Part shown: one piece after another, positions 1 to 57,985 of the stretch
Numbering within the stretch: the first letter of the stretch is position 1
How the letters are laid out: each line of letters starts with the position of its first letter
Assembly (NCBI GenBank): GCA_001189095.1
Contig: LFCK01000002.1
Location: 1,937-65,936 of the forward strand
DNA from: Parcubacteria bacterium C7867-001
GTDB taxonomy: Bacteria > Patescibacteriota > Minisyncoccia > Phycocordibacterales > Phycocordibacteraceae
Reading direction: 5' to 3'
Length of the DNA stretch: 64,000 bases
Notes under the pieces: generated by a model
The model's input: only the letters and a program-made list of their open reading frames with translations
Database searches by the model: none
Told to the model about the DNA's origin: nothing
Made by a program: the position numbers and the translations under genes

Positions 1-183
1 GTTTCACTTCCCGAGGTTCGCGATCTTCCTTGCGGAAGAACAATCCATACGGATTTGGTTTCCCTATTCGGACATTTCCGGATCAAAGGTTACAAGTCAC
101 CTCCCCGAAACATTTCGCAGACTAGTCACGTCCTTCATCGCTGTTGTAAGCCTAGGCATCCACCGTGCGCCCTTAATTGTTTC
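1..183 (-). rRNA. rrl: 23S rRNA, 5' end (partial, continues beyond window start)
   Basis: Reverse complement reads ...AATTAAGGGCGCACGGTGGATGCCTAGGC...GCGATGAAGGACGTG...GGGAAACC...GGGAAGTGAAAC, matching the universally conserved 5' domain of bacterial 23S rRNA; 5' boundary approximate. Confidence 0.85.
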
Positions 184-493
184 CTGTGCGGAAACCTGAA
201 CACCACATGTTCATTATGATCTTTTGCAATTCTTCCTCGGCACTAACAAATGCCGAGGTCGATTACCTTTTCTTTTTTCTTGCGTATTCAGTTATCAAGG
301 AGCCCGTATCTCTTGAAACGAAAACCGCCCCGAGGGGCGGCTTTCGTGTTTCCACGATGGGTCAGCGACCCGTTCCGCTCCTTGGTTTAGGTAGACTTCG
401 TAGTGATAGACACGTAGGGAGGAGTATATGCGTGTCCCCCTACCCTGTCAACACCTCGGGGTTTCAGCTGCTTTCTGGGGATACTGGGGACAG

Positions 494-3483: not shown

Positions 3484-3672
3484 AATTGGTTTTACGTACA
3501 GAAACGAACAAGGTCATCCGTTATGGATGACCGAGGAGACAGTAGAACGAGAACGCGCCGAAACGCTTCCCCGTTCGTCCCTCGGCAGGAAATTAAGGCC
3601 TTTCGACCACCCGCTGTCTTCGGTCCGTACAGGAGGGACTATACCGAAGCTGGGCCGTTCTTGCAAACGTGG
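3484..3672 (-). promoter_or_regulatory. Long 5' leader of rplJ (candidate L10 autoregulatory leader)
   Basis: 189-nt untranslated region with stable hairpin (ggtcatccataacggatgacc) directly upstream of rplJ; functional assignment is inference only. Confidence 0.25.
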
Positions 3673-4447: not shown

Positions 4448-6367
4448 TTAACGCTTCGTGACGAAGACGAGGTCGCTCTTGAACGAGTCAAGATTCGACG
4501 TGTAGTAGGTGGTGCTGAGCGTGCTCGACGGACCGTAGTTGATACCAACGAGGGTAACACCAACGTTTCCAGCGGTCGGCGTACCAGTGGTGGTAGCGAT
4601 GAACGTGGAAGTGAAGGTGAACGTACGGCTCGTGTTTGCCGAGACCTTGTACGCAGTACCAGCAACGTCGCCGTTGATGGTGTCTGCGGCCGTGACTGCA
4701 GAGCCCTGCGGTTCACCCGTAGCGCCCTGAGTCGAGCCAGTCGACGTAGCGTAGTTCACACCGCCTGCCGAAGCTGACGGAGTGGTCGAGACAGAAGCCA
4801 CCTTGGTGGTTGCTGCACCGATGAAGACGTCCGTGTCACTTGCAGTGACTGTGAACGGCATCGTGAAGGTAACGACGTCGCCCGCACCTGCGAGACCTGC
4901 CGTAACCGTCTTCGAGAACGTACCCTTCGTAACCGAAACGCCGGTTGCGGTAAGGGTCTGGGTGTAACCGAGGACTGCCGACGACGGAGTAACCGAAGCG
5001 CCGTTGTCATCCGAGACATCCCAACCATACGTCGTGGTCGACGCGATGAGCGTCGTTCCGTCTGCGTATGCGCTGTCGCCCTTGAGGTCAACAACAACAT
5101 CGAGCGTAACGGTTTCGTCAGCATCGATATCGAGGTCAACACCATCGAAGGTCGTGGTACCGAAGGTACCAGTTGAAACGGTCTTCGACTTGAGGACGGT
5201 CGAACCGTTCATAAGCTTCACAGTCGAGATAACATCGTTAAGATTGTTATCCGAAGTGCCGAGCTGGACCGGGAGGTCCGTCACGGTGACGGTCTGATTC
5301 TTCGCCTTGAGTTTGAGCGAGAGGATCTTCACGCCAGTCGTGGTCGAGCTCGAAACAGCAACCTGGCTTGCGCGAGGAGAGCTGTCCGAGAGGCTCGAGG
5401 TAAGCGTACCAGCCGTGCTTGCCGAGACGGTGAAGTCCTGGGTGATAGCAGTGCTGACGTAGGTGTCCGAGATACCATCTGCACCGGCAGCGCGGAGGCT
5501 GTCAACGAGAAGTTTCGCGGTAACCGTCTTACCATCTTCGTTCGTGCCGATCGAAGCGACCGGGGTAACTTCGACGTAGATGTTGCCCGTCTGACCATTC
5601 TTCACGACCGTGTTGAGGTTCGAGAAGCGGAAGGTCCACGTGCGTCCATCCTTGTCGCCGTCCGAAGCATCCATCGAGGCAACTTTCTTGCCATCGATGT
5701 AGAGGCTGACCGTATCGACGTACTTGTCGAGGTTCGAGCTCTGGCTTGAAACGTTTGCGACCACGAAGGTTGCATCAACGCGCTGAATCATGACATCGCC
5801 ATCCGTAGCATCTCCAGAGACGCCGACGACTTTCGTCACTGCATCGCCCTCATCGAGGTCGGTGGTGACATCGCCGAGCGAGGTGATACCGGTGAGGCGG
5901 CCATTGCCAGTGAGGCCGGTGGTCGTACCAGGAGTGCTGGTCGTGCCGCCTGCCATAGCATTGACTGCTGCGCGGGTCTTCGGACCGAAGTAGCCAGCTG
6001 CCGGCGCAATGCCGTTAGCTGCCTGGAAAGCTGCGACTGCTGCCTGGGTCTGAGAACCAAAGTAGCCAGTTGCGCCTGCCGGGATCGAGAAGCCCTTGCT
6101 GATAAGCCAGTTCTGAAGACCGGTTACGTCAGTTCCCTTTGAACCGATAGTAAGGTCTGAATTGAACATGGTGCTTCCTGTTGAGTTGGAACCACCAGCC
6201 TGCGCCTGAAGGGCTGCAATCTGCGCCATAAGAGCGCTGATCTGTGCCTGAATATCAGTCGAGGTAGCTGCCTTCGCCGGAACGTAGGCAAACGACATCG
6301 CAACGAGACCGAAACCGGCCACTACCGCTGCGATTTTCGCGACTGTATTTGTGTTTGCATTAGACAT
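4448..6367 (-). CDS. Secreted/anchored surface protein with two peptidoglycan-binding (PG_binding_1-like) repeats and a long Thr/Ser/Val-rich beta-rich region
   Basis: N-terminal hydrophobic anchor; GSKGTDVTGLQNWLISKGF...AAVAAFQAANGI repeated twice; low-complexity T/S/V-rich C-terminal 450 aa. Confidence 0.7.
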   Translation of the reverse strand: MSNANTNTVAKIAAVVAGFGLVAMSFAYVPAKAATSTDIQAQISALMAQIAALQAQAGGSNSTGSTMFNSDLTIGSKGTDVTGLQNWLISKGFSIPAGATGYFGSQTQAAVAAFQAANGIAPAAGYFGPKTRAAVNAMAGGTTSTPGTTTGLTGNGRLTGITSLGDVTTDLDEGDAVTKVVGVSGDATDGDVMIQRVDATFVVANVSSQSSNLDKYVDTVSLYIDGKKVASMDASDGDKDGRTWTFRFSNLNTVVKNGQTGNIYVEVTPVASIGTNEDGKTVTAKLLVDSLRAAGADGISDTYVSTAITQDFTVSASTAGTLTSSLSDSSPRASQVAVSSSTTTGVKILSLKLKAKNQTVTVTDLPVQLGTSDNNLNDVISTVKLMNGSTVLKSKTVSTGTFGTTTFDGVDLDIDADETVTLDVVVDLKGDSAYADGTTLIASTTTYGWDVSDDNGASVTPSSAVLGYTQTLTATGVSVTKGTFSKTVTAGLAGAGDVVTFTMPFTVTASDTDVFIGAATTKVASVSTTPSASAGGVNYATSTGSTQGATGEPQGSAVTAADTINGDVAGTAYKVSANTSRTFTFTSTFIATTTGTPTAGNVGVTLVGINYGPSSTLSTTYYTSNLDSFKSDLVFVTKR

Positions 6368-12983: not shown

Positions 12984-13285
12984 CAGCGCACTGCTGCGCT
13001 GTTATGCTTTTCGAAATCGGCCGGAGGCATGTTTTGCGAGCACGCAAAACAGCCGAGGCGGGATCGCGGAAGTTTGCGAGCGACGGGGAGCAAAATATCC
13101 GTGATTGGAGAAAGCGTAACCTTCACGAAATAAGCACACGGAGGCGTGCTATCGTTCGATGAGAAGTTCTGTTAGCCCGCAGGAACTATGGAGCGAAACG
13201 GGTCCTGTTGGGCTTCGCGGGCACAACCCGTTACGCAATTCAAAAGGCCCGCCGCATATGCGGCGGGCCTTTCTCATTTGCCTAG

Positions 13286-47196: not shown

Positions 47197-47347
47197 ACCG
47201 CTCGCTTTCGCTTGTGTCACGGATATTTCCTCGCCGACGCTCGGAAATTCCGCGACCCCACCTCGCGGTTTTGCCTGCTGGCAAAACATCGCTCCGGCCG
47301 CACATGGGCAAGAGCCCTTTGCGCAGGCAAAGTGCTCATGTCCCATG

Positions 47348-50312: not shown

Positions 50313-50700
50313 GGTGGGAGAGATAGCTCGTAAGAATAAGGGCTGCGGCGGCTGCGTCAACATGTCCAAGGTCACCGCGGCGCTCCCCTTCTATGGTGCG
50401 GCTTGCTTCCTGCGTCGTAAGCGCTTCCGGCTCAAAGTCGACCGTACGCCCAGTCCTCTGCTCAAGCAGCTGTGCGAATGCGCGGGCCGCGTGCGCAACC
50501 GGATTATCCTTTCCGGAGAAGTCACGCGAGTCTCCCATGACAACATGATCAACGTTCTTCTCGGCTATGATTCGCGTGACTTCGTCGATAAGTCGTCCGT
50601 CGTTTGGGACTATGGCGTGCGGAAAACCCATCGTCCCCGCTTCGTCTGAGAGTGCGAGTCCAACTTTTCTGCTACCAAAATCAATCCCAAGATATCGCAT
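50299..50700 (-). CDS. ruvX: Holliday junction resolvase-like protein YqgF/RuvX
   Basis: MRYLGIDFGSRKVGLALSD... Confidence 0.85.
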   Translation of the reverse strand: MRYLGIDFGSRKVGLALSDEAGTMGFPHAIVPNDGRLIDEVTRIIAEKNVDHVVMGDSRDFSGKDNPVAHAARAFAQLLEQRTGRTVDFEPEALTTQEASRTIEGERRGDLGHVDAAAAALILTSYLSHHGKN

Positions 50701-50761
50701 ACAGGCATCCTACACCACTTGGTTGCAGAATCATCTCCGACAGAATAGATTCATTCATACG

Positions 50762-50789
50762 GGAGGAGTGGCAGAGTGGTCTATCGCAC
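50762..50789 (+). repeat. 28-nt direct repeat identical to the 5' end of tRNA-Ser (partial tRNA copy)
   Basis: ggaggagtggcagagtggtctatcgcac occurs at ~50762 and again at 50855 (start of intact tRNA-Ser). Confidence 0.7.
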
Positions 50790-50854
50790 TTGTATTGTTC
50801 AATGAGACAACGAGCGCGGAGCGCGACTATGTCGAATTAATCCCGATTCAGCGC

Positions 50855-50939
50855 GGAGGAGTGGCAGAGTGGTCTATCGCACCTGTCTTGAAAACAGGAG
50901 TGGGGCAACCCACCGTGAGTTCGAATCTCACCTCCTCCG
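50855..50939 (+). tRNA. tRNA-Ser (anticodon TGA), type II
   Basis: Acceptor GGAGGAG/CTCCTCC, discriminator G, anticodon arm CCTGT-CTTGAAA-ACAGG, variable arm AGTGGGGCAACCCACC, T-arm GTGAG-TTCGAAT-CTCAC. Confidence 0.85.
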
Positions 50940-50968
50940 CGGTGCATCGGGGAAAACAATTTAAATAG

Positions 50969-50986
50969 GAATCTCACCTCCTCCGC
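50969..50986 (+). repeat. 18-nt direct repeat of the tRNA-Ser 3' end (att-like remnant)
   Basis: gaatctcacctcctccgc repeats tRNA positions ~50923..50940, ~30 nt downstream of the tRNA. Confidence 0.65.
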
Positions 50987-50997
50987 TAAAGAGTGCT

Positions 50998-51501
50998 ATG
51001 CACTGGTGGTATCATACGAAAGGTATGCCGCCGTTCGCAGTATTCGCTTGGGAAGCGAAAGAATACGTTCACGAAGAAAAAGGCGCCGATTGGTACTGGG
51101 CGCTTGGCATTATTGCGACCGCCGTCGTTATCGTTTCTATCCTTTTCAACAATATCCTTCTCGCGCTCGTAATAGCCGCCGGTACCGGCGCGCTCGCGCT
51201 CGCCGCCGCTCGTCGTCCGGAAATACACCGCTTCGCAGTGACGCGAGAGGGTGTCGCTATCGATTCAAGTCTGTATCTCTTCAAGAACATGCGTTCATTT
51301 TCTATTCTCGAGTACGTCGACAGCACGATTCCTCCCACTATTTCTATAAAGACGAATCATATGCTCTCTCCGCACATAACCATGCCTATCGTCGGCTACG
51401 ACCCGCTCGAAATCTACGACTACATCAGCGAGCACGTTCCCGAAGGAAATCATCACCACCCTTCCCTTATGGAAGAGGTGGTCGGTCTTCTTCGTCTTTA
51501 G
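50998..51501 (+). CDS. Hypothetical membrane protein (167 aa)
   Basis: ORF with 2 TM helices and His-rich C-terminus; weak RBS. Confidence 0.4.
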   Translation: MHWWYHTKGMPPFAVFAWEAKEYVHEEKGADWYWALGIIATAVVIVSILFNNILLALVIAAGTGALALAAARRPEIHRFAVTREGVAIDSSLYLFKNMRSFSILEYVDSTIPPTISIKTNHMLSPHITMPIVGYDPLEIYDYISEHVPEGNHHHPSLMEEVVGLLRL

Positions 51502-51599
51502 CTGCACCCAAGAGTACTTCCAATTTCTAAACTTAAGAAAGTAAAGAAAAAGGGGCGCGTCTTGCGAATCGCGTATTGAGACGGTACAGTCATTTTCAC

Positions 51600-51671
51600 G
51601 CTCCCGTCGTTCAATGGATAGGACGCATCCTTGCGGAGGATGTAATGTAGGTTCGATTCCTACCGGGAGCA
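51600..51671 (+). tRNA. tRNA-Arg (anticodon GCG as read; unusual)
   Basis: Acceptor GCTCCCG/CGGGAGC, D-arm GTTC-AATGGATA-GGAC, anticodon arm CATCC-TTGCGGA-GGATG, T-arm GTAGG-TTCGATT-CCTAC; followed by hairpin terminator ~51680..51716. Confidence 0.65.
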
Positions 51672-51897
51672 CAAAAGACAGAAACGCCTGCCCTTCGGCA
51701 GGCTTTCTGCTTTTGTGCTCCCGGAGGAAAGCGTCTGCACGCTTTCCGTTAGGAATCGAAAGGCGCAGCGATGTTCGGCCAGCAGGCCGAACCGCGAGCC
51801 GGGGTCGAGAAATTTTGTTTGCGTCGGCAAACAAAATATTCGTGACCGAAAGGCGTAATCGCCGGTTCCTACCGTAAAAAATGCTATAACTCCTCCA

Positions 51898-51972
51898 GCT
51901 CCCGTCGTTCAATGGATAGGACAGCTCCCTCCGAAGGAGCAAATGCAGGTTCGATTCCTGCCGAGAGCACCA
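51898..51972 (+). tRNA. tRNA-Arg (anticodon CCG), CCA encoded
   Basis: Shares first 25 nt with preceding tRNA-Arg; anticodon arm GCTCC-CTCCGAA-GGAGC; acceptor has C5-A68 mismatch; terminal A of CCA is the A of the next gene's ATG. Confidence 0.7.
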
Positions 51973-52670
51973 TGCAAGAAAAAGTTTGGGAACGCGAATA
52001 CCGCTCAAAAAAGATGCTCTCGCCGAGCAATGTTCCGCATGCCGATGTCGTGCGCTTCGCGAAGTGGTACAAGAAGCGTGAGCGCCAAATTGATCGTGAA
52101 TTCGATTTCGACCGCGTTACGATTCTTGATTTAGGTTCCGGTACTGGGAGGAACGCTTTTTACTTCGCGGAACGCGGCGCAAAGGCCATCGGATATGAAA
52201 TCTCAGATACGGCGCTTTCCTACGCTCGCTCCTTCGCGAGCGACGCTGGACTTTCGATTACGTACGAGAAACGCAGCATCGGTGAACAATTCGCACTCCC
52301 TGACGCATCTATCGATATCATTCTCGACATCACTTCTTCCAATTCCCTTTCGGACAGCGAACGCGCGGTCTATCTCGCAGAAACCCATCGCGTCTTAAAA
52401 CCAAATGGGATTCTTCTCGTTCGAGCGCTTTCAAAGGAAGCTGACAAACACGCCAAAGAACTCATCGCCCGCTTCCCCGGCCCCGATGAGGACACCTACA
52501 TACACCCTGACCTCGGCGTTACGGAAAAGGTATTTACCAAAGAATCCTTCACAAAAACATACGGTGACCACTTTTCTTTCATCGACCTTGAAAGGATCGA
52601 ACACTACGCAACGGTCGCTGGGCGTAAGTACAAACGACAATACTGGCTTGCGTATCTTGCCAAGAATTGA
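51972..52670 (+). CDS. Class I SAM-dependent methyltransferase
   Basis: Motif I ILDLGSGTGRNAFYFAERGA; start refined to MQEKVWERE (ORF track 51912 start lies inside the tRNA). Confidence 0.7.
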   Translation: MQEKVWEREYRSKKMLSPSNVPHADVVRFAKWYKKRERQIDREFDFDRVTILDLGSGTGRNAFYFAERGAKAIGYEISDTALSYARSFASDAGLSITYEKRSIGEQFALPDASIDIILDITSSNSLSDSERAVYLAETHRVLKPNGILLVRALSKEADKHAKELIARFPGPDEDTYIHPDLGVTEKVFTKESFTKTYGDHFSFIDLERIEHYATVAGRKYKRQYWLAYLAKN

Positions 52671-52729
52671 CTTGAGTTAAATAGATCGGTACTTTCAAGA
52701 ACGACTACCTGACATAAGGAGGAGTCGCC

Positions 52730-53653
52730 ATGATCTTTGAAGGATCGAGGGAGGTGCTTGAGCGCTTACACCTCAAACAGAAGTTGTTGCGCGAAAAAGA
52801 TCCTGCGCATGAAGAAATTCGACCCGCGCTCCTCATTTTAAGTGGAGTTATGCGTGGAGTGTATGGAGGAGGTCAGACAATCGCTCTCCACCAGCATGGA
52901 CTAAGCAATGTCTTCGACACGGTCGTTGGAATATCGACTGGTGCTCCCGTTGCTGCGTACTTCGTCGCAAATGACATTGAACGCGGTCTTACCATCTACT
53001 GGAACGAGTGTGCGACACCGGAATTTCTCTCTTTTAGAAGAAGCTTTGGCGCTGAGCGCCCGATGGACATCGACTATCTAGGGAGTGTATTCCGCGGAGA
53101 AACAGCTCGAGGAGTGCGTCTTAGTCAGGAAGCACTGTCTCGCTCTCGCTCCGCGCTTTACACAGGCGTGACCTGCAGACGCACTGGCGAGGGTATCTTT
53201 CTTGATGCAAAGCTCGCGCAACCAGATGTTGTGCAAGCAGTTCAAGCCTCACTCGCAGCGCCATGGCTCTCTCACGGCAACGTTGTGGTCGATGGTAACT
53301 CATACATCGATGGTGCTGGCGCCCTTCCCTTTCCTGCACAGGAAGTGATTGAACGGTTTCGCCCAACAGACTTGCTTGTTCTTGCAAACTGTTCGCCGGA
53401 ACTGAAGTCTTCGCTGCCTCGTTCACTCCTGCGCTCGATTCTTGTAGCTTCACTCCCGCCGAGTGTACGCGATGCGTTTGCGACGATGGACACTCGATTC
53501 CAATCGAGTCTTGCGTATCTTCGCTCGCAGGAGGATTGCCGCTACGCAATTGTATGGACCGATGACGACCTCACGGGGTTCGAACAAAATCCCGTGCGAT
53601 TGGAGTGCGCCGCAGAACGTGCACGAAAACACCTTAGCGATCTTCTTGCTTAA
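52730..53653 (+). CDS. Patatin-like phospholipase
   Basis: Oxyanion GGG (GVYGGGQ), nucleophile elbow GISTG (GxSxG), catalytic Asp in VDGNSYIDGAG; lower GC and different codon usage than core genes. Confidence 0.78.
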   Translation: MIFEGSREVLERLHLKQKLLREKDPAHEEIRPALLILSGVMRGVYGGGQTIALHQHGLSNVFDTVVGISTGAPVAAYFVANDIERGLTIYWNECATPEFLSFRRSFGAERPMDIDYLGSVFRGETARGVRLSQEALSRSRSALYTGVTCRRTGEGIFLDAKLAQPDVVQAVQASLAAPWLSHGNVVVDGNSYIDGAGALPFPAQEVIERFRPTDLLVLANCSPELKSSLPRSLLRSILVASLPPSVRDAFATMDTRFQSSLAYLRSQEDCRYAIVWTDDDLTGFEQNPVRLECAAERARKHLSDLLA

Positions 53654-53667
53654 CTAGCTTGAAAAAT

Positions 53668-53702
53668 AAAAACCCGATGCAGAGCATCGGGTTTTCTTTT
53701 TT
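53668..53702. terminator. Bidirectional terminator (aaaaacccgatgcagagcatcgggtttt)
   Basis: Between patatin gene and rpsT. Confidence 0.65.
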
Positions 53703-57324: not shown

Positions 57325-57472
57325 CAAAGACGAAAATCCTGACCTGCGTCAGGATTTTTCGCTTTGTGCGAGGCGGAGCCATGTCGCCTTAGCGACGGCG
57401 AGCCCGGGTCGGGGTTGCGAGCTAGATTGCGAAGACATGGAGCAATCTAGCCGCAAACCGTGACCACATGAA

Positions 57473-57985
57473 TTAACTCTGATTTTCTAGTATTTCTCTA
57501 AAATTCTTCCTTAATTCCTCTTTGGCTTTTTTTAATTCATCTTCCGAAATTTCGTAAGCCTTATACCATTGATCATAAGATATTTTTCCATCCGCCAGCT
57601 GCTCCGAAAAGTTTGAACTTACTAAATTACTTAACACGCGAATGGAAGCGTCAATAAAATTTTGAATTGCTTCCGAGGAGCCTTGATTAAATAGAATCTC
57701 TTTTTTTAAGAAAAAAGATCTTAGGGCATAAAGTTGATTTAGAAGCATCTGAACCTCTTTTTTCTTTTCCTCTAGGCGATCTCCGCCAAACATTGAACCT
57801 TTCGTTGCAATGTACTTCCTTAGACTGTCTTCCAAATCGATAACTTTTTCGAAAACATCTTCAATATGCAGAAGTTGTTTTTCGTAAAGTTTCTCGAACT
57901 TATATCTTCGTTTGGCGAAAAAGTATGTAAGGACTGCGGCTGCCAACCCGCTTGCAAGGGCTTTAACTATATCGGGGTCCAACAT
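57473..57985 (-). CDS. Hypothetical protein, strongly AT-rich gene (probable horizontally acquired)
   Basis: 170 aa, N-terminal TM then K/E-rich coiled-coil-like region; base composition and codon usage unlike the surrounding high-GC genes; 1 nt after holA-like stop. Confidence 0.6.
   Translation of the reverse strand: MLDPDIVKALASGLAAAVLTYFFAKRRYKFEKLYEKQLLHIEDVFEKVIDLEDSLRKYIATKGSMFGGDRLEEKKKEVQMLLNQLYALRSFFLKKEILFNQGSSEAIQNFIDASIRVLSNLVSSNFSEQLADGKISYDQWYKAYEISEDELKKAKEELRKNFREILENQS

What the first reader, a model, noticed from the sequence alone, without database searches (positions are those of the whole stretch)
50762..51972. tRNA-Ser locus flanked by partial 5' and 3' tRNA duplicates, with a downstream island (membrane protein, two tRNA-Arg genes, methyltransferase, patatin)
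An intact tRNA-Ser(TGA) is preceded ~65 nt upstream by an exact 28-nt copy of its own 5' end. It is followed ~30 nt downstream by an exact 18-nt copy of its 3' end, which includes the discriminator base. Such tRNA-end duplications are the footprints of site-specific integration and excision at tRNA genes (att sites). The next 2.7 kb holds a hypothetical membrane protein and two tRNA-Arg genes that share identical 5' halves. The second tRNA-Arg uniquely encodes CCA, has an acceptor mismatch, and overlaps the start codon of a SAM methyltransferase. A patatin-like phospholipase with atypical GC and codon usage follows. No integrase is present in the window, so this may be a decayed island or a hotspot rearranged by successive insertions.
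Basis: seen in the sequence. Interest (0 to 1): 0.6.

Follow-up and report, generated by a model that had tools for sequence, protein, structure and literature searches.

The report
Working tRNA nested inside dead tRNA
The two partial tRNA-Ser copies are the two halves of an older tRNA-Ser gene that was split in its anticodon by a small mobile DNA cassette carrying its own working tRNA-Ser, and most of the supposed downstream "island" is conserved core genome.

Summary
The repeats are real: 28 nt exact at 50762/50855 and 18 nt exact at 50923/50969. Other assemblies reproduce them. They are not att sites bounding an island. The upstream copy stops at anticodon position 35. The downstream relic (50953-50986) starts at position 36 and keeps a compensated anticodon-stem pair. 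Together they are one old tRNA-Ser(TGA) gene, split by a 155-nt insert (50798-50952) that carries the present tRNA-Ser. Homologous inserts sit at the same anticodon position in distant Paceibacteria (L042, L045, L108). Fuller versions add a GIY-YIG nuclease ORF and about 30-nt GC palindromes (L028, L038, L106, L107), and deleting them in silico restores a tRNA-Ser call. The window copy is an ORF-less, decayed relic of this cassette family. Homing by the nuclease is inferred, not shown. The order tRNA-Ser, membrane protein, tRNA-Arg(GCG), tRNA-Arg(CCG), rpsT is conserved in dozens of relatives. Only the methyltransferase and patatin genes (51972-53653) are lineage-specific, and their composition is unremarkable. 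The spacer between the two tRNA-Arg genes holds one of four window copies of an undescribed structured RNA motif. That motif lies downstream of tRNA genes and shows strong covariation.

The parts
50762..50797 (+). 5' half of the old (outer) tRNA-Ser(TGA) gene, positions 1-35, ending ...TTG inside the anticodon. It is now a pseudogene fragment.
   Evidence: The first 28 nt are identical to the inner tRNA and the next 8 nt differ at 2 positions. It lies 61 nt from the RuvX start, where relatives without an insert (L002, L005, L006) have their tRNA-Ser.
50798..50841 (+). Conserved 5' module of the inserted cassette (TTCAATGAG..GAGCG..GCGACTAT..GAATTAAT).
   Evidence: It is homologous to sequence at the identical junction (..CTTG|TTCAATGA..) in L042, L045 and L108. 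In L108 the module is followed by a GIY-YIG ORF that the window lacks.
50842..50854 (+). Leader of the inner tRNA, probably a remnant of the left GC palindrome. It pairs with the trailer at 50940-50952.
   Evidence: Inverted repeat I3 is 20 nt and 90% complementary. It extends the acceptor stem by 11 of 13 pairs. The same leader/trailer pairing with different sequence occurs in L042, L045 and L028.
50855..50939 (+). Inner, intact tRNA-Ser(TGA), presumably the functional gene, brought in by the cassette.
   Evidence: ARAGORN calls it and Rfam tRNA scores 56.3 bits.
50940..50952 (+). Trailer of the inner tRNA and right end of the cassette (CGGTGCATCGGGG), a remnant of 'CTTG + palindrome'.
   Evidence: It aligns with GTTGCGGCGG in L042, GGTGTGGCGG in L045 and ..CTTG+palindrome in L028, L038, L106 and L107.
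50953..50968 (+). Old tRNA-Ser, positions 36-42 (AAAACAA), then a 9-nt A/T-rich filler (TTTAAATAG). The filler replaces the 25 nt that encode the variable arm, the T-stem 5' strand and the first T-loop bases.
   Evidence: The relic starts exactly where the 5' half stops. Outer pair T28-A42 is compensated relative to inner C28-G42, and functional tRNA-Ser genes with CTTGT/ACAAG stems exist in L051 and L020. ARAGORN finds no tRNA after in-silico excision, so the outer gene is dead.
50969..50986 (+). 3' end of the old tRNA-Ser (T-loop 3' part, T-stem 3' strand, acceptor 3' strand, discriminator and one further base).
   Evidence: It is an exact 18-nt copy. L108 keeps the same 18-nt relic, and its acceptor strand matches the outer 5' half, not the inner tRNA.
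50998..51501 (+). Conserved membrane protein of unknown family (the true start is probably the ATG at 51025). This is core genome, not island cargo.
   Evidence: A homologue lies between tRNA-Ser and tRNA-Arg(GCG), directly upstream of tRNA-Arg(GCG), in nearly all relatives whose contig reaches it, at 25-59% identity. It has no Pfam, NCBIfam or PADLOC match.
51600..51672 (+). tRNA-Arg(GCG), conserved in position.
51654..51733 (+). Long hairpin formed by the tRNA-Arg(GCG) 3' end and trailer with a downstream antisense copy. It contains a terminator-like inner hairpin at 51686-51703.
   Evidence: Inverted repeat I1 has 24-nt arms. The terminator scan found the inner hairpin and the fold supports the structure.
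51749..51874 (+). Copy of a structured RNA motif found downstream of tRNA genes (model R1). P1 is closed by an antisense copy of the tRNA-Arg T-loop/T-stem (51749-51757) and a truncated sense copy (51863-51874).
   Evidence: The match to model R1 scores 80.3 bits, E = 3.7e-18. The spacer folds at -102.7 kcal/mol, z = -7.5. The family shows strong covariation. No Rfam family matches.
51898..51972 (+). tRNA-Arg(CCG) with a genomic CCA and a C5.A68 mismatch, conserved in position.
   Evidence: The first 25 nt shared with tRNA-Arg(GCG) are also shared in relatives.
51972..53653 (+). Lineage-specific insertion: a class I SAM methyltransferase (51972-52670) and a patatin-like phospholipase (52730-53653). 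It sits between the tRNA-Arg(CCG) 3' end and the conserved rpsT terminator.
   Evidence: Pfam identifies both. Both are absent from this slot in all relatives, where tRNA-Arg(CCG) and rpsT lie only tens of nt apart. A methyltransferase homologue (69%) sits after tRNA-Leu(GAG) in L007. The GC z-scores are -0.9 and -0.2. No tRNA-end repeat flanks the insertion.
53662..53702 (.). Bidirectional terminator hairpin shared with rpsT. It corresponds to the hairpin that directly follows tRNA-Arg(CCG) in relatives.
   Evidence: Inverted repeat I5, and the comparison with L006, L010 and L012 flanks.

Best explanation
The locus is a nested tRNA gene. The resident tRNA-Ser(TGA) gene was split between anticodon positions 35 and 36 by a small mobile cassette (window 50798-50952). 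The cassette carries a complete tRNA-Ser(TGA) of its own, so decoding was never lost. The old gene's two halves were left as the 5' duplicate (50762-50797) and the 3' duplicate (50953-50986). The 3' half has since lost its variable arm and T-stem. The cassette belongs to a family found in Paceibacteria (CPR bacteria). Its fuller members consist of a roughly 30-nt GC-rich palindrome, an 84-90-aa GIY-YIG nuclease ORF, the replacement tRNA with a leader and trailer that pair, and a second copy of the palindrome. The window copy has lost the ORF and most of both palindromes. The remnants of the palindromes form the inverted repeat that extends the acceptor stem. This architecture, its homology across genomes and the insertion site are shown. 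The mechanism is inferred. The GIY-YIG protein probably cuts cassette-free tRNA-Ser genes near the anticodon-coding DNA. Repair then copies the cassette from an occupied allele, with co-conversion of the 3' flank. The carried tRNA makes the insertion harmless, where an intron would instead rely on self-splicing.
For: 1. The 5' copy ends at G35 and the 3' relic begins with A36-A42 (AAAACAA). Outer pair 28:42 is T-A where the inner is C-G. Functional tRNA-Ser genes with that stem exist in L051 and L020.
2. The old 5' half sits 61 nt from RuvX, the position of tRNA-Ser in relatives without an insert.
3. The 44-nt module, leader, inner tRNA and trailer align with inserts at the same ..CTTG|..|AAAAC junction in L042, L045 and L108. 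In L108 about 300 nt holding a GIY-YIG ORF lie between module and tRNA.
4. Full cassettes in L028, L038, L106 and L107 have the layout outer 5' half, palindrome, GIY-YIG ORF, inner tRNA-Ser, palindrome, outer 3' half. Deleting them in silico restores an ARAGORN tRNA-Ser(TGA) call in L028 and L038.
5. The ORFs match Pfam GIY-YIG above the curated cut-off. The protein search with the L028 ORF returned 22 homologues; every source name given is Patescibacteria-group, and three of the six contexts examined lie in this same RuvX to tRNA-Ser slot.
6. Most relatives have an uninterrupted tRNA-Ser, which is the empty-site state.
7. In the full cassettes the host flanks are 25-71% identical while the palindromes are 90-97% and the outer 3' half 96-100%. 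That 3' half mismatches the local outer 5' half in L038, L106 and L107, as expected if it travels with the cassette.
8. Analogous ORF-less cassettes of 116-119 nt with terminal inverted repeats split tRNA-Arg(TCT) at 35/36 in L032 and L045, and L036 keeps the left junction only.
9. Synteny and composition rule out an island between tRNA-Ser and tRNA-Arg(CCG).
Against: - The window has no nuclease ORF, no intact palindrome and no GIY-YIG match anywhere in its 64 kb. Its membership rests on homology of a 44-nt module and of the junctions.
- No relative closer than about 64-68% protein identity was found, so no empty site at species level is available.
- Nuclease activity and target specificity are untested. 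Small GIY-YIG proteins without a DNA-binding domain are not proven homing enzymes.
- The inner tRNA carries the same anticodon-loop sequence as the target, so how occupied alleles escape re-cutting is unexplained. The chimeric outer halves in L028 suggest repeated invasion.
- In the window the inner and outer copies have identical ends. Gene conversion, or a donor from a very close relative, must be assumed.
- The 96-100% identity of the outer 3' half in full cassettes is higher than expected for a dead relic.
Confidence: 0.75

Rival explanations
1. One reading: the tRNA-end copies are att-site duplications left by integrase-mediated integration and excision, and the following 2.7 kb is a decayed genomic island.
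For: The 18-nt copy runs from the T-loop to the 3' end, the classical identity block of T-loop-crossing integrases (general knowledge of tRNA integration sites). The methyltransferase and patatin genes are lineage-specific and abut a tRNA 3' end. Copies of tRNA 3' ends downstream of tRNAs are frequent in this lineage.
Against: The 18-nt repeats enclose only 28 nt. The 5' fragment cannot be produced by 3'-end att recombination. The fragment ends and the relic starts at the same anticodon position, so they are two halves of one gene. The membrane protein and both tRNA-Arg genes are conserved core synteny. No integrase lies nearby. No repeat flanks the methyltransferase and patatin genes. Their composition is ordinary.
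Confidence: 0.06
2. Local replication slippage or tandem duplication of parts of the tRNA-Ser gene (units of 93 and 46 nt), followed by decay, with no mobile element involved.
For: The 5' copy includes 5 bases of identical upstream flank (ATTCA). The copy spacings are short. L026 shows a true 65-nt tandem duplication of the tRNA-Ser 3' end including its trailer.
Against: The 44 nt between the 5' copy and the leader are not a decayed tRNA half. They are conserved, at the same junction, in L042, L045 and L108, genomes whose RuvX is at most about 48% identical to the window's. Divergence is sharply non-uniform: 28/28 identical, then about 45% in the remainder. The compensated 28:42 pair shows the outer copy was a distinct functional allele.
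Confidence: 0.07
3. The insert is an intron-like element. The outer tRNA-Ser would still be functional, its halves rejoined by splicing or trans-association through the GC palindromes, with the inner tRNA released by RNase P and RNase Z.
For: The insertion lies in the anticodon loop. In full cassettes GC-rich complementary palindromes abut both halves, as in archaeal split tRNAs. The outer 3' half is 96-100% conserved among cassettes whose ORFs differ by 11-34%. L038 shows stem changes that improve pairing with its own 5' half.
Against: In the window, L045 and L108 the outer 3' half has lost its variable arm and T-stem, and no tRNA is detected after excision. Rfam finds no group I or II intron and no ribozyme in the regions searched (window 50700-52000 and L045 5200-10900). 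Acceptor strands of the outer halves mismatch in L038 and L106. Bacteria are not known to have a tRNA splicing endonuclease (general knowledge).
Confidence: 0.07
4. Assembly artefact: strain variants of the tRNA-Ser locus were collapsed into a chimeric contig.
For: The source is a metagenome-assembled genome. Two apparent tRNA 'fragments' in relatives (L001, L075) turned out to flank runs of N.
Against: The JGI contig of 279,860 nt and an independent Logan assembly of SRR5324955 are 100% identical to the window across the repeats. An NCBI MAG contig (GCA_002396685.1) carries the same gene layout there. The same architecture recurs in many unrelated MAGs from different studies and assemblers.
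Confidence: 0.02

Closest known systems
Group I introns with homing endonuclease genes in bacterial tRNA anticodon loops (for example cyanobacterial tRNA-Leu(UAA) and tRNA-fMet introns; review PMC3984707 listed; otherwise general knowledge)
   Same: A selfish insertion in the anticodon loop of a conserved tRNA gene, sometimes with a nuclease ORF. Occupied and empty alleles coexist among relatives, and the host keeps a working tRNA.
   Different: There is no ribozyme: no Rfam intron match, and the window insert is 155 nt, of which 85 nt are a tRNA. The interrupted gene is not rescued by splicing. It is replaced by a second complete tRNA carried in the insert, and it then decays.
Free-standing GIY-YIG homing endonuclease genes such as phage T4 segB in the tRNA gene cluster (general knowledge)
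   Same: A small GIY-YIG ORF sits beside tRNA genes. Spread is presumed to occur by a double-strand break and co-conversion of flanking markers. The conserved outer 3' half fits co-conversion.
   Different: The cassettes are chromosomal in CPR bacteria, and no viral relative was found. They insert inside the tRNA gene itself, carry a spare tRNA, and are bounded by about 30-nt palindromes. Activity is unproven.
Integrase-mediated integration into tRNA genes, where the element carries the tRNA 3' segment and restores the gene (general knowledge)
   Same: A mobile element targets a tRNA gene and compensates for the damage by bringing tRNA sequence. Displaced tRNA fragments remain as footprints.
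   Different: A whole tRNA is carried rather than a 3' segment. Both a 5' and a 3' fragment are left. The elements are 116-436 nt long. No integrase was seen in the window or in five of the six cassette contexts examined. L109 is the exception, with a truncated Phage_integrase ORF beside its GIY-YIG ORF.
Caldiarchaeum subterraneum tRNA-Thr(GGU) disruption model (PMC3293823)
   Same: A 5' fragment of a tRNA gene lies upstream of an intact copy, with a putative mobile element between them. This was interpreted as tRNA gene disruption by integration and recombination.
   Different: That case is archaeal, involves a 1.8-kb element encoding a recombinase, and is linked to the gain of protein-spliced introns and to split tRNAs. 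Here the host is bacterial, the context is GIY-YIG, and the insertion is at 35/36 rather than the canonical 37/38 intron site.
Nanoarchaeum equitans split tRNA genes (PMC3491384 and PMC4390854, listed; general knowledge)
   Same: tRNA halves are bordered by GC-rich complementary sequences next to the break in the anticodon loop.
   Different: In Nanoarchaeum the halves are functional and are trans-spliced by the archaeal endonuclease. Here the outer halves decay (window, L045, L108) and a complete replacement tRNA is present.

Membership tests
Integrase-type tRNA att site / genomic island | A tyrosine or serine recombinase gene next to the tRNA | tested here: not met
   The ORFs from 48.8 to 58.6 kb are pilM, a tRNA-binding protein, RuvX, the membrane protein, the methyltransferase, patatin, S20, RuvA, a Mur ligase, an LTD protein, PspC, an unknown ORF and HolA.
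Integrase-type tRNA att site / genomic island | Direct repeats of the tRNA 3' segment bounding the variable DNA | tested here: not met
   The 18-nt repeats enclose 28 nt only. No copy of the tRNA-Arg(CCG) end lies beyond the patatin gene.
Integrase-type tRNA att site / genomic island | The segment is variably present among relatives and compositionally distinct | tested here: not met
   The segment from tRNA-Ser to tRNA-Arg(CCG) is conserved in dozens of relatives. The methyltransferase and patatin genes are lineage-specific, but their GC z-scores are only -0.9 and -0.2.
Homing-endonuclease (GIY-YIG) cassette | A nuclease ORF within the insert | tested here: not met
   No GIY-YIG match in the window. 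The ORF is present in the homologous insert of L108 and in L028, L038, L106 and L107, with Pfam PF01541 above the cut-off. The window copy is therefore filed as an ORF-less derivative, not an autonomous member.
Homing-endonuclease (GIY-YIG) cassette | The same precise insertion site in a conserved target across genomes, with empty-site alleles in relatives | tested here: met
   The junction ..CTTG|insert|AAAAC, between anticodon positions 35 and 36, is found in the window, L028, L038, L042, L045, L106, L107 and L108. Most other relatives have an uninterrupted tRNA-Ser.
Homing-endonuclease (GIY-YIG) cassette | The endonuclease cleaves the empty target and the insert spreads by repair | not testable with these tools
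   Only indirect support exists: the cassette and its outer 3' half are far more conserved than the host flanks.
Group I or group II intron in a tRNA gene | A catalytic RNA core | tested here: not met
   Permissive Rfam searches of window 50700-52000 and L045 5200-10900 return only tRNAs and chance hits.
Group I or group II intron in a tRNA gene | Exons that join into a functional tRNA | tested here: not met
   In-silico excision in the window gives no tRNA call. 25 nt of the 3' half are replaced by 9 unrelated nt.
Archaeal-type split or BHB-intron tRNA | A bulge-helix-bulge motif at the splice sites and a splicing endonuclease in the genome | not tested
   The break is at 35/36, not 37/38. 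Neither the motif nor an endonuclease was searched for.
Known RNA families (Rfam 15), for the spacer between the tRNA-Arg genes | A match to a curated covariance model | tested here: not met
   Nothing apart from tRNAs at gathering scores, and only sub-threshold chance hits at E <= 10.

The most novel reading that the evidence does not exclude
In organisms carrying the full cassette, the interrupted outer tRNA-Ser may not be dead. Its halves, each bordered by a copy of the GC palindrome, could be brought together by palindrome pairing and rejoined after RNase P and RNase Z excise the inner tRNA. That would be a bacterial, protein-dependent or processing-dependent split or intron-containing tRNA. 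The near-perfect conservation of the outer 3' half (96-100%, against 66-89% for the neighbouring ORF) is the observation this reading would explain.
Probability: 0.08. Interest if true: 0.9.

Novelty: new variant of a known kind. Interest (0 to 1): 0.62.

Why it matters
Selfish elements that target essential, conserved genes normally avoid killing the host by self-splicing (introns, inteins) or by restoring the cut end of the gene (integrative elements). Here the element seems to use a third route: it brings a complete spare copy of the gene it destroys. If the GIY-YIG protein does drive homing, these cassettes act as a gene drive for tRNA alleles in CPR bacteria. That would explain why sharply different tRNA-Ser alleles occupy the same locus in related genomes. 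It would also explain why tRNA halves litter these very small genomes. There is a practical lesson too: tRNA fragments next to tRNA genes in such genomes should not be read as island boundaries. The separate RNA motif found downstream of tRNA genes (four copies in this window) is a well-supported, undescribed structured RNA. It is tied to tRNA 3' ends and may bear on tRNA maturation in organisms with reduced RNA-processing machinery.

Tried and rejected
- **Decayed tandem duplicate.** The upstream unit was aligned to the tRNA unit. I rejected this once the 44-nt module proved conserved in L042, L045 and L108.
- **Hammerhead ribozyme.** CUGAUGAG...GAAAC flanks the tRNA-Arg(TCT) cassette of L045. 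Rfam finds no hammerhead and the homologous L032 and L036 flanks lack the motif, so it is chance.
- **Promoter in the module.** No sigma-70-like site was found in 50600-52100.
- **Known RNA family for the spacer or the module.** None was found.
- **Defence-system reading of the methyltransferase and patatin genes.** There is only a generic methyltransferase-domain hit to a PADLOC model, nothing for patatin, and only sub-threshold NCBIfam hits.
- **Closer relatives.** The genome and metagenome scans gave nothing above about 68% (RuvX) and 64% (membrane protein) identity. Exact-protein look-ups returned only identical contigs. Species-level presence or absence could therefore not be tested.
- **Phage vectors.** No viral relative of the GIY-YIG ORF was found.
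- **Apparent tRNA fragments in L001 and L075.** These are scaffold-gap artefacts.
- **Literature.** Seven full-text searches found no description of these cassettes or of the RNA motif. The nearest parallel is archaeal.
Full report
**Observation.**
ARAGORN and Rfam agree on tRNA-Ser(TGA) at 50855-50939, tRNA-Arg(GCG) at 51600-51672 and tRNA-Arg(CCG) at 51898-51972. The first 28 nt of tRNA-Ser recur exactly at 50762-50789. Its last 18 nt, including the base after the discriminator, recur exactly at 50969-50986. Each sequence occurs only twice in the 64-kb window, against 0.00-0.01 expected by chance. With two mismatches the upstream copy extends to 50797. The genomic CCA, the C5.A68 mismatch and the overlap of the CCA with the ATG at 51972 are all real. 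A JGI contig and a Logan assembly of a different run are 100% identical to the window across the repeats. The window comes from MAG GCA_002396685.1, and a further run has the same methyltransferase, patatin and rpsT layout. The repeats are therefore not an assembly artefact.

**Context and the 'island'.**
The organism is a Paceibacteria (Kaiserbacteria-like) CPR bacterium. The best RuvX relatives are 60-68% identical. Dozens of relatives whose proteins are only 25-70% identical share one gene order: pilM, tRNA-binding protein, RuvX, then divergently tRNA-Ser(TGA), membrane protein, tRNA-Arg(GCG), tRNA-Arg(CCG), rpsT, ruvA, Mur ligase, LTD protein, tRNA-Lys, holA. The membrane protein and both tRNA-Arg genes are thus core genome.

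The shared 25-nt 5' end of the two tRNA-Arg genes, and occasional genomic CCA, are also seen in relatives. Only the methyltransferase and patatin genes (51972-53653) are missing from this slot in every relative. There, tRNA-Arg(CCG) is followed within tens of nt by the terminator shared with rpsT. These two genes are generic members of their families and are compositionally ordinary, with GC z-scores of -0.9 and -0.2 and a patatin GC3 z of -1.7. No tRNA-end repeat flanks them.

**What the tRNA-Ser fragments are.**
The upstream copy stops at ...TTG, which is anticodon position 35. After the inner tRNA and a 13-nt trailer the sequence resumes with AAAACAA, positions 36-42. Then come 9 A/T-rich nt where 25 nt of variable arm and T-stem should be, and then the 18-nt 3' end. 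The outer anticodon stem has T28-A42 where the inner tRNA has C28-G42. Functional tRNA-Ser genes with that stem exist in L051 and L020. The two 'duplicates' are therefore the halves of one older, distinct tRNA-Ser allele. That allele sat 61 nt from RuvX, where relatives without an insert have their gene. It is now dead, because in-silico excision gives no tRNA call.

**The insert is a member of a cassette family.**
The 155 nt between the halves (50798-50952) consist of a 44-nt module, a 13-nt leader, the intact tRNA-Ser and a 13-nt trailer. The leader and trailer pair at 11 of 13 positions and so extend the acceptor stem. The whole unit aligns with inserts at the identical junction (..CTTG|TTCAATGA.. 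and ..GG|AAAAC..) in L042 (Taylorbacteria) and L045. It also aligns with L108, where about 300 nt encoding a GIY-YIG protein lie between the module and the tRNA.

A related, fuller form occurs in L028, L038, L106 and L107. Its layout is outer 5' half, a 30-nt GC palindrome, an 86-87-aa GIY-YIG ORF (Pfam PF01541 above the cut-off), the inner tRNA-Ser with pairing leader and trailer, a second palindrome, and the outer 3' half. Removing these 434-436-nt inserts in silico restores an ARAGORN tRNA-Ser(TGA) call in L028 and L038, the two tested.

The protein search with the L028 ORF returned 22 homologues; every source name given is Patescibacteria-group, and three of the six contexts examined lie in this same RuvX to tRNA-Ser slot. 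Short cassettes with terminal inverted repeats split tRNA-Arg(TCT) at the same 35/36 position in L032 and L045, and L036 keeps the left junction only. Among the full cassettes the host flanks are 25-71% identical. The palindromes are 90-97% identical and the outer 3' half 96-100%. That 3' half mismatches the local 5' half in L038, L106 and L107, as if it travels with the cassette. The leader/trailer inverted repeat in the window is best read as the vestiges of the two palindromes.

**Mechanism.**
Three things are shown. The architecture is nested. The insertion site is shared. The ORF-less and ORF-bearing inserts are homologous. The mechanism itself is inferred: homing driven by the GIY-YIG nuclease, with the carried tRNA compensating for the destroyed gene, followed by loss of the ORF and decay of the old 3' half.

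Several points weaken this inference. Nuclease activity is untested. The window has no ORF. It is unclear how the inner tRNA escapes re-cutting. The outer 3' half is unexpectedly well conserved in full cassettes, which keeps a splicing or split-tRNA reading alive at low probability.

**Rivals.**
- *att-site island.* This fails on synteny, on the geometry of the fragments and on the absence of a recombinase.
- *Pure tandem duplication.* This fails on the cross-genome conservation of the module and on the compensated stem pair. L026 does show a genuine 65-nt tandem duplication at the same tRNA.
- *Intron.* This fails on the decayed exon and the lack of any ribozyme match.

**The spacer between the tRNA-Arg genes.**
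The 225-nt spacer folds at -102.7 kcal/mol, z = -7.5. It contains a long hairpin that includes the tRNA 3' end, and then a three-way-junction motif. A covariance model built from seven copies found 47 matches in the window and the first 80 loci. Of these, 43 lie within 200 nt downstream of a tRNA gene on the same strand. Of all cells, 92.6% are paired. 26 of 27 pairs show changes on both sides. A G-U pair is conserved in 34 of 47 copies, which points to an RNA on the tRNA strand.

Of the 43 copies next to a tRNA, 21 begin with an antisense copy of at least 8 nt of their own tRNA's T-arm. Nine end with a sense copy of at least 10 nt of its 3' end. The window has copies at 51749-51874, 47215-47298 (-), 57363-57481 and 13004-13126. 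The last of these follows what looks like the elongation factor P gene. No Rfam family matches, and the searches that touched on tRNA-linked RNA motifs found no description.

**Comparison and novelty.**
The closest known systems are:
- homing-endonuclease-bearing group I introns in bacterial tRNA anticodon loops;
- free-standing GIY-YIG genes in phage tRNA clusters;
- integrative elements that restore the tRNA 3' end;
- the archaeal Caldiarchaeum tRNA-Thr disruption model.

The present system differs in carrying a whole replacement tRNA, in its very small size, in its palindromic borders and in its CPR host. I class it as a new variant of a known kind. The window copy itself is a degenerate relic.

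Noticed in passing
window 51749-51874 (+), 47215-47298 (-), 57363-57481 (+), 13004-13126 (+); 43 further matches in L005-L079: An undescribed structured RNA motif (three-way junction; consensus ..GSCGGAG-hairpin-CGAGSCGGGGUCGCGG-hairpin-CCGUGACC..). It lies 36-200 nt downstream of tRNA genes of many identities, after a terminator-like hairpin. Covariation is strong: 26 of 27 pairs change on both sides, and a G-U pair is conserved. The closing helix often pairs an antisense copy of the tRNA's own T-arm with a sense copy of its 3' end. One window copy follows what looks like the elongation factor P gene instead of a tRNA. No Rfam match.
   Followed up: partly
L020, L023, L025, L038, L043, L050, L058, L065, L074 (inserts listed); related motif after tRNA-Ser in L020, L022, L028, L098: A second recurrent element downstream of tRNA genes ('type A'..GAUUGAGAUAUUUU..AAAAUAUCCAAUUGGGGUACUGAnnCUGUAAGnnUC..). 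It also ends in a 15-22-nt sense copy of the upstream tRNA's 3' end. It was neither modelled nor searched.
   Followed up: no
window 57473-57985 (-): A 170-aa ORF with GC 0.363 (z = -4.9 against window ORFs) lies between tRNA-Lys with its trailing RNA motif and holA. In several relatives those two neighbours lie close together, so the ORF is probably a recent lineage-specific insertion next to a tRNA. It has no Pfam, NCBIfam or PADLOC match.
   Followed up: partly
window 51972-53653 (+): The methyltransferase and patatin pair is inserted exactly between the tRNA-Arg(CCG) 3' end and the conserved rpsT terminator. The only methyltransferase homologue in the fetched loci (L007, 69%) also sits just after a tRNA, tRNA-Leu(GAG). 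This suggests that cargo genes accumulate at tRNA 3' ends.
   Followed up: partly
L028 9210-9239 and 9614-9643; L038, L106, L107, L109, L110, L111; also L022 10313-10342 and L052 15151-15180, away from tRNAs: A roughly 30-nt GC-rich double palindrome (CCCGCCGGAGGCGGGTCCGCCTCCGGCGGA), always bordered by CTTG and AAAAC when it lies in a tRNA-Ser anticodon loop. In L111 it sits alone inside a tRNA-Ser remnant. In L108 a copy interrupts the D-loop region of the outer tRNA half. It may be a small mobile unit or a recombination site in its own right.
   Followed up: partly
L045 9909-10094; L032 about 5045-5206; L036 15176-15304: ORF-less cassettes of 116-119 nt that carry a tRNA-Arg(TCT), bounded by inverted repeats CCCGCCCGACTCGCCTG / GACGAGTCAGGCGGGCGGG. 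They are inserted between anticodon positions 35 and 36 of an older tRNA-Arg(TCT). L036 keeps only the left junction.
   Followed up: partly
L051 7065-7295, L078 7836-8066, L079 6849-7079, L056 3463-3531: A second subgroup of 77-aa GIY-YIG ORFs lies 70-114 nt downstream of tRNA-Ser genes, behind a conserved leader (TTCGGNCCGCAGTAGC..CTTCGGCGTGACGNAGTCCGC). In L051 the ORF is followed by a 16-nt copy of the tRNA 3' end.
   Followed up: no
L002-L030 tRNA-Ser(TGA) genes: Two sharply different tRNA-Ser(TGA) alleles (D-arm GGCAGAGTGGTCTATCGC against GCGTGAGTGGTCGAAACG) occupy the same syntenic locus in closely related genomes. This is consistent with repeated allele replacement.
   Followed up: no
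L003, L004, L008-L012, L106-L108, between RuvX and tRNA-Ser: A small DUF5652 membrane-protein gene (86-130 aa) is variably present between RuvX and tRNA-Ser. It is absent in the window, L002, L005 and L006.
   Followed up: no
L109 1080-1526: A truncated Phage_integrase (tyrosine recombinase) ORF overlaps the start of a GIY-YIG ORF. That ORF in turn runs into the 5' half of an interrupted tRNA-Ser(CGA), so a recombinase may be involved in some variants.
   Followed up: no
window 1-186 (-): The 5' end of a 23S rRNA gene is cut off by the start of the window.
   Followed up: no
L001 about 3511-3610; L075 about 6218-6318: Runs of N (scaffold gaps) sit next to tRNA genes and create spurious partial tRNA duplicates in public MAGs. 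This is a caveat for any survey of tRNA fragments.
   Followed up: yes
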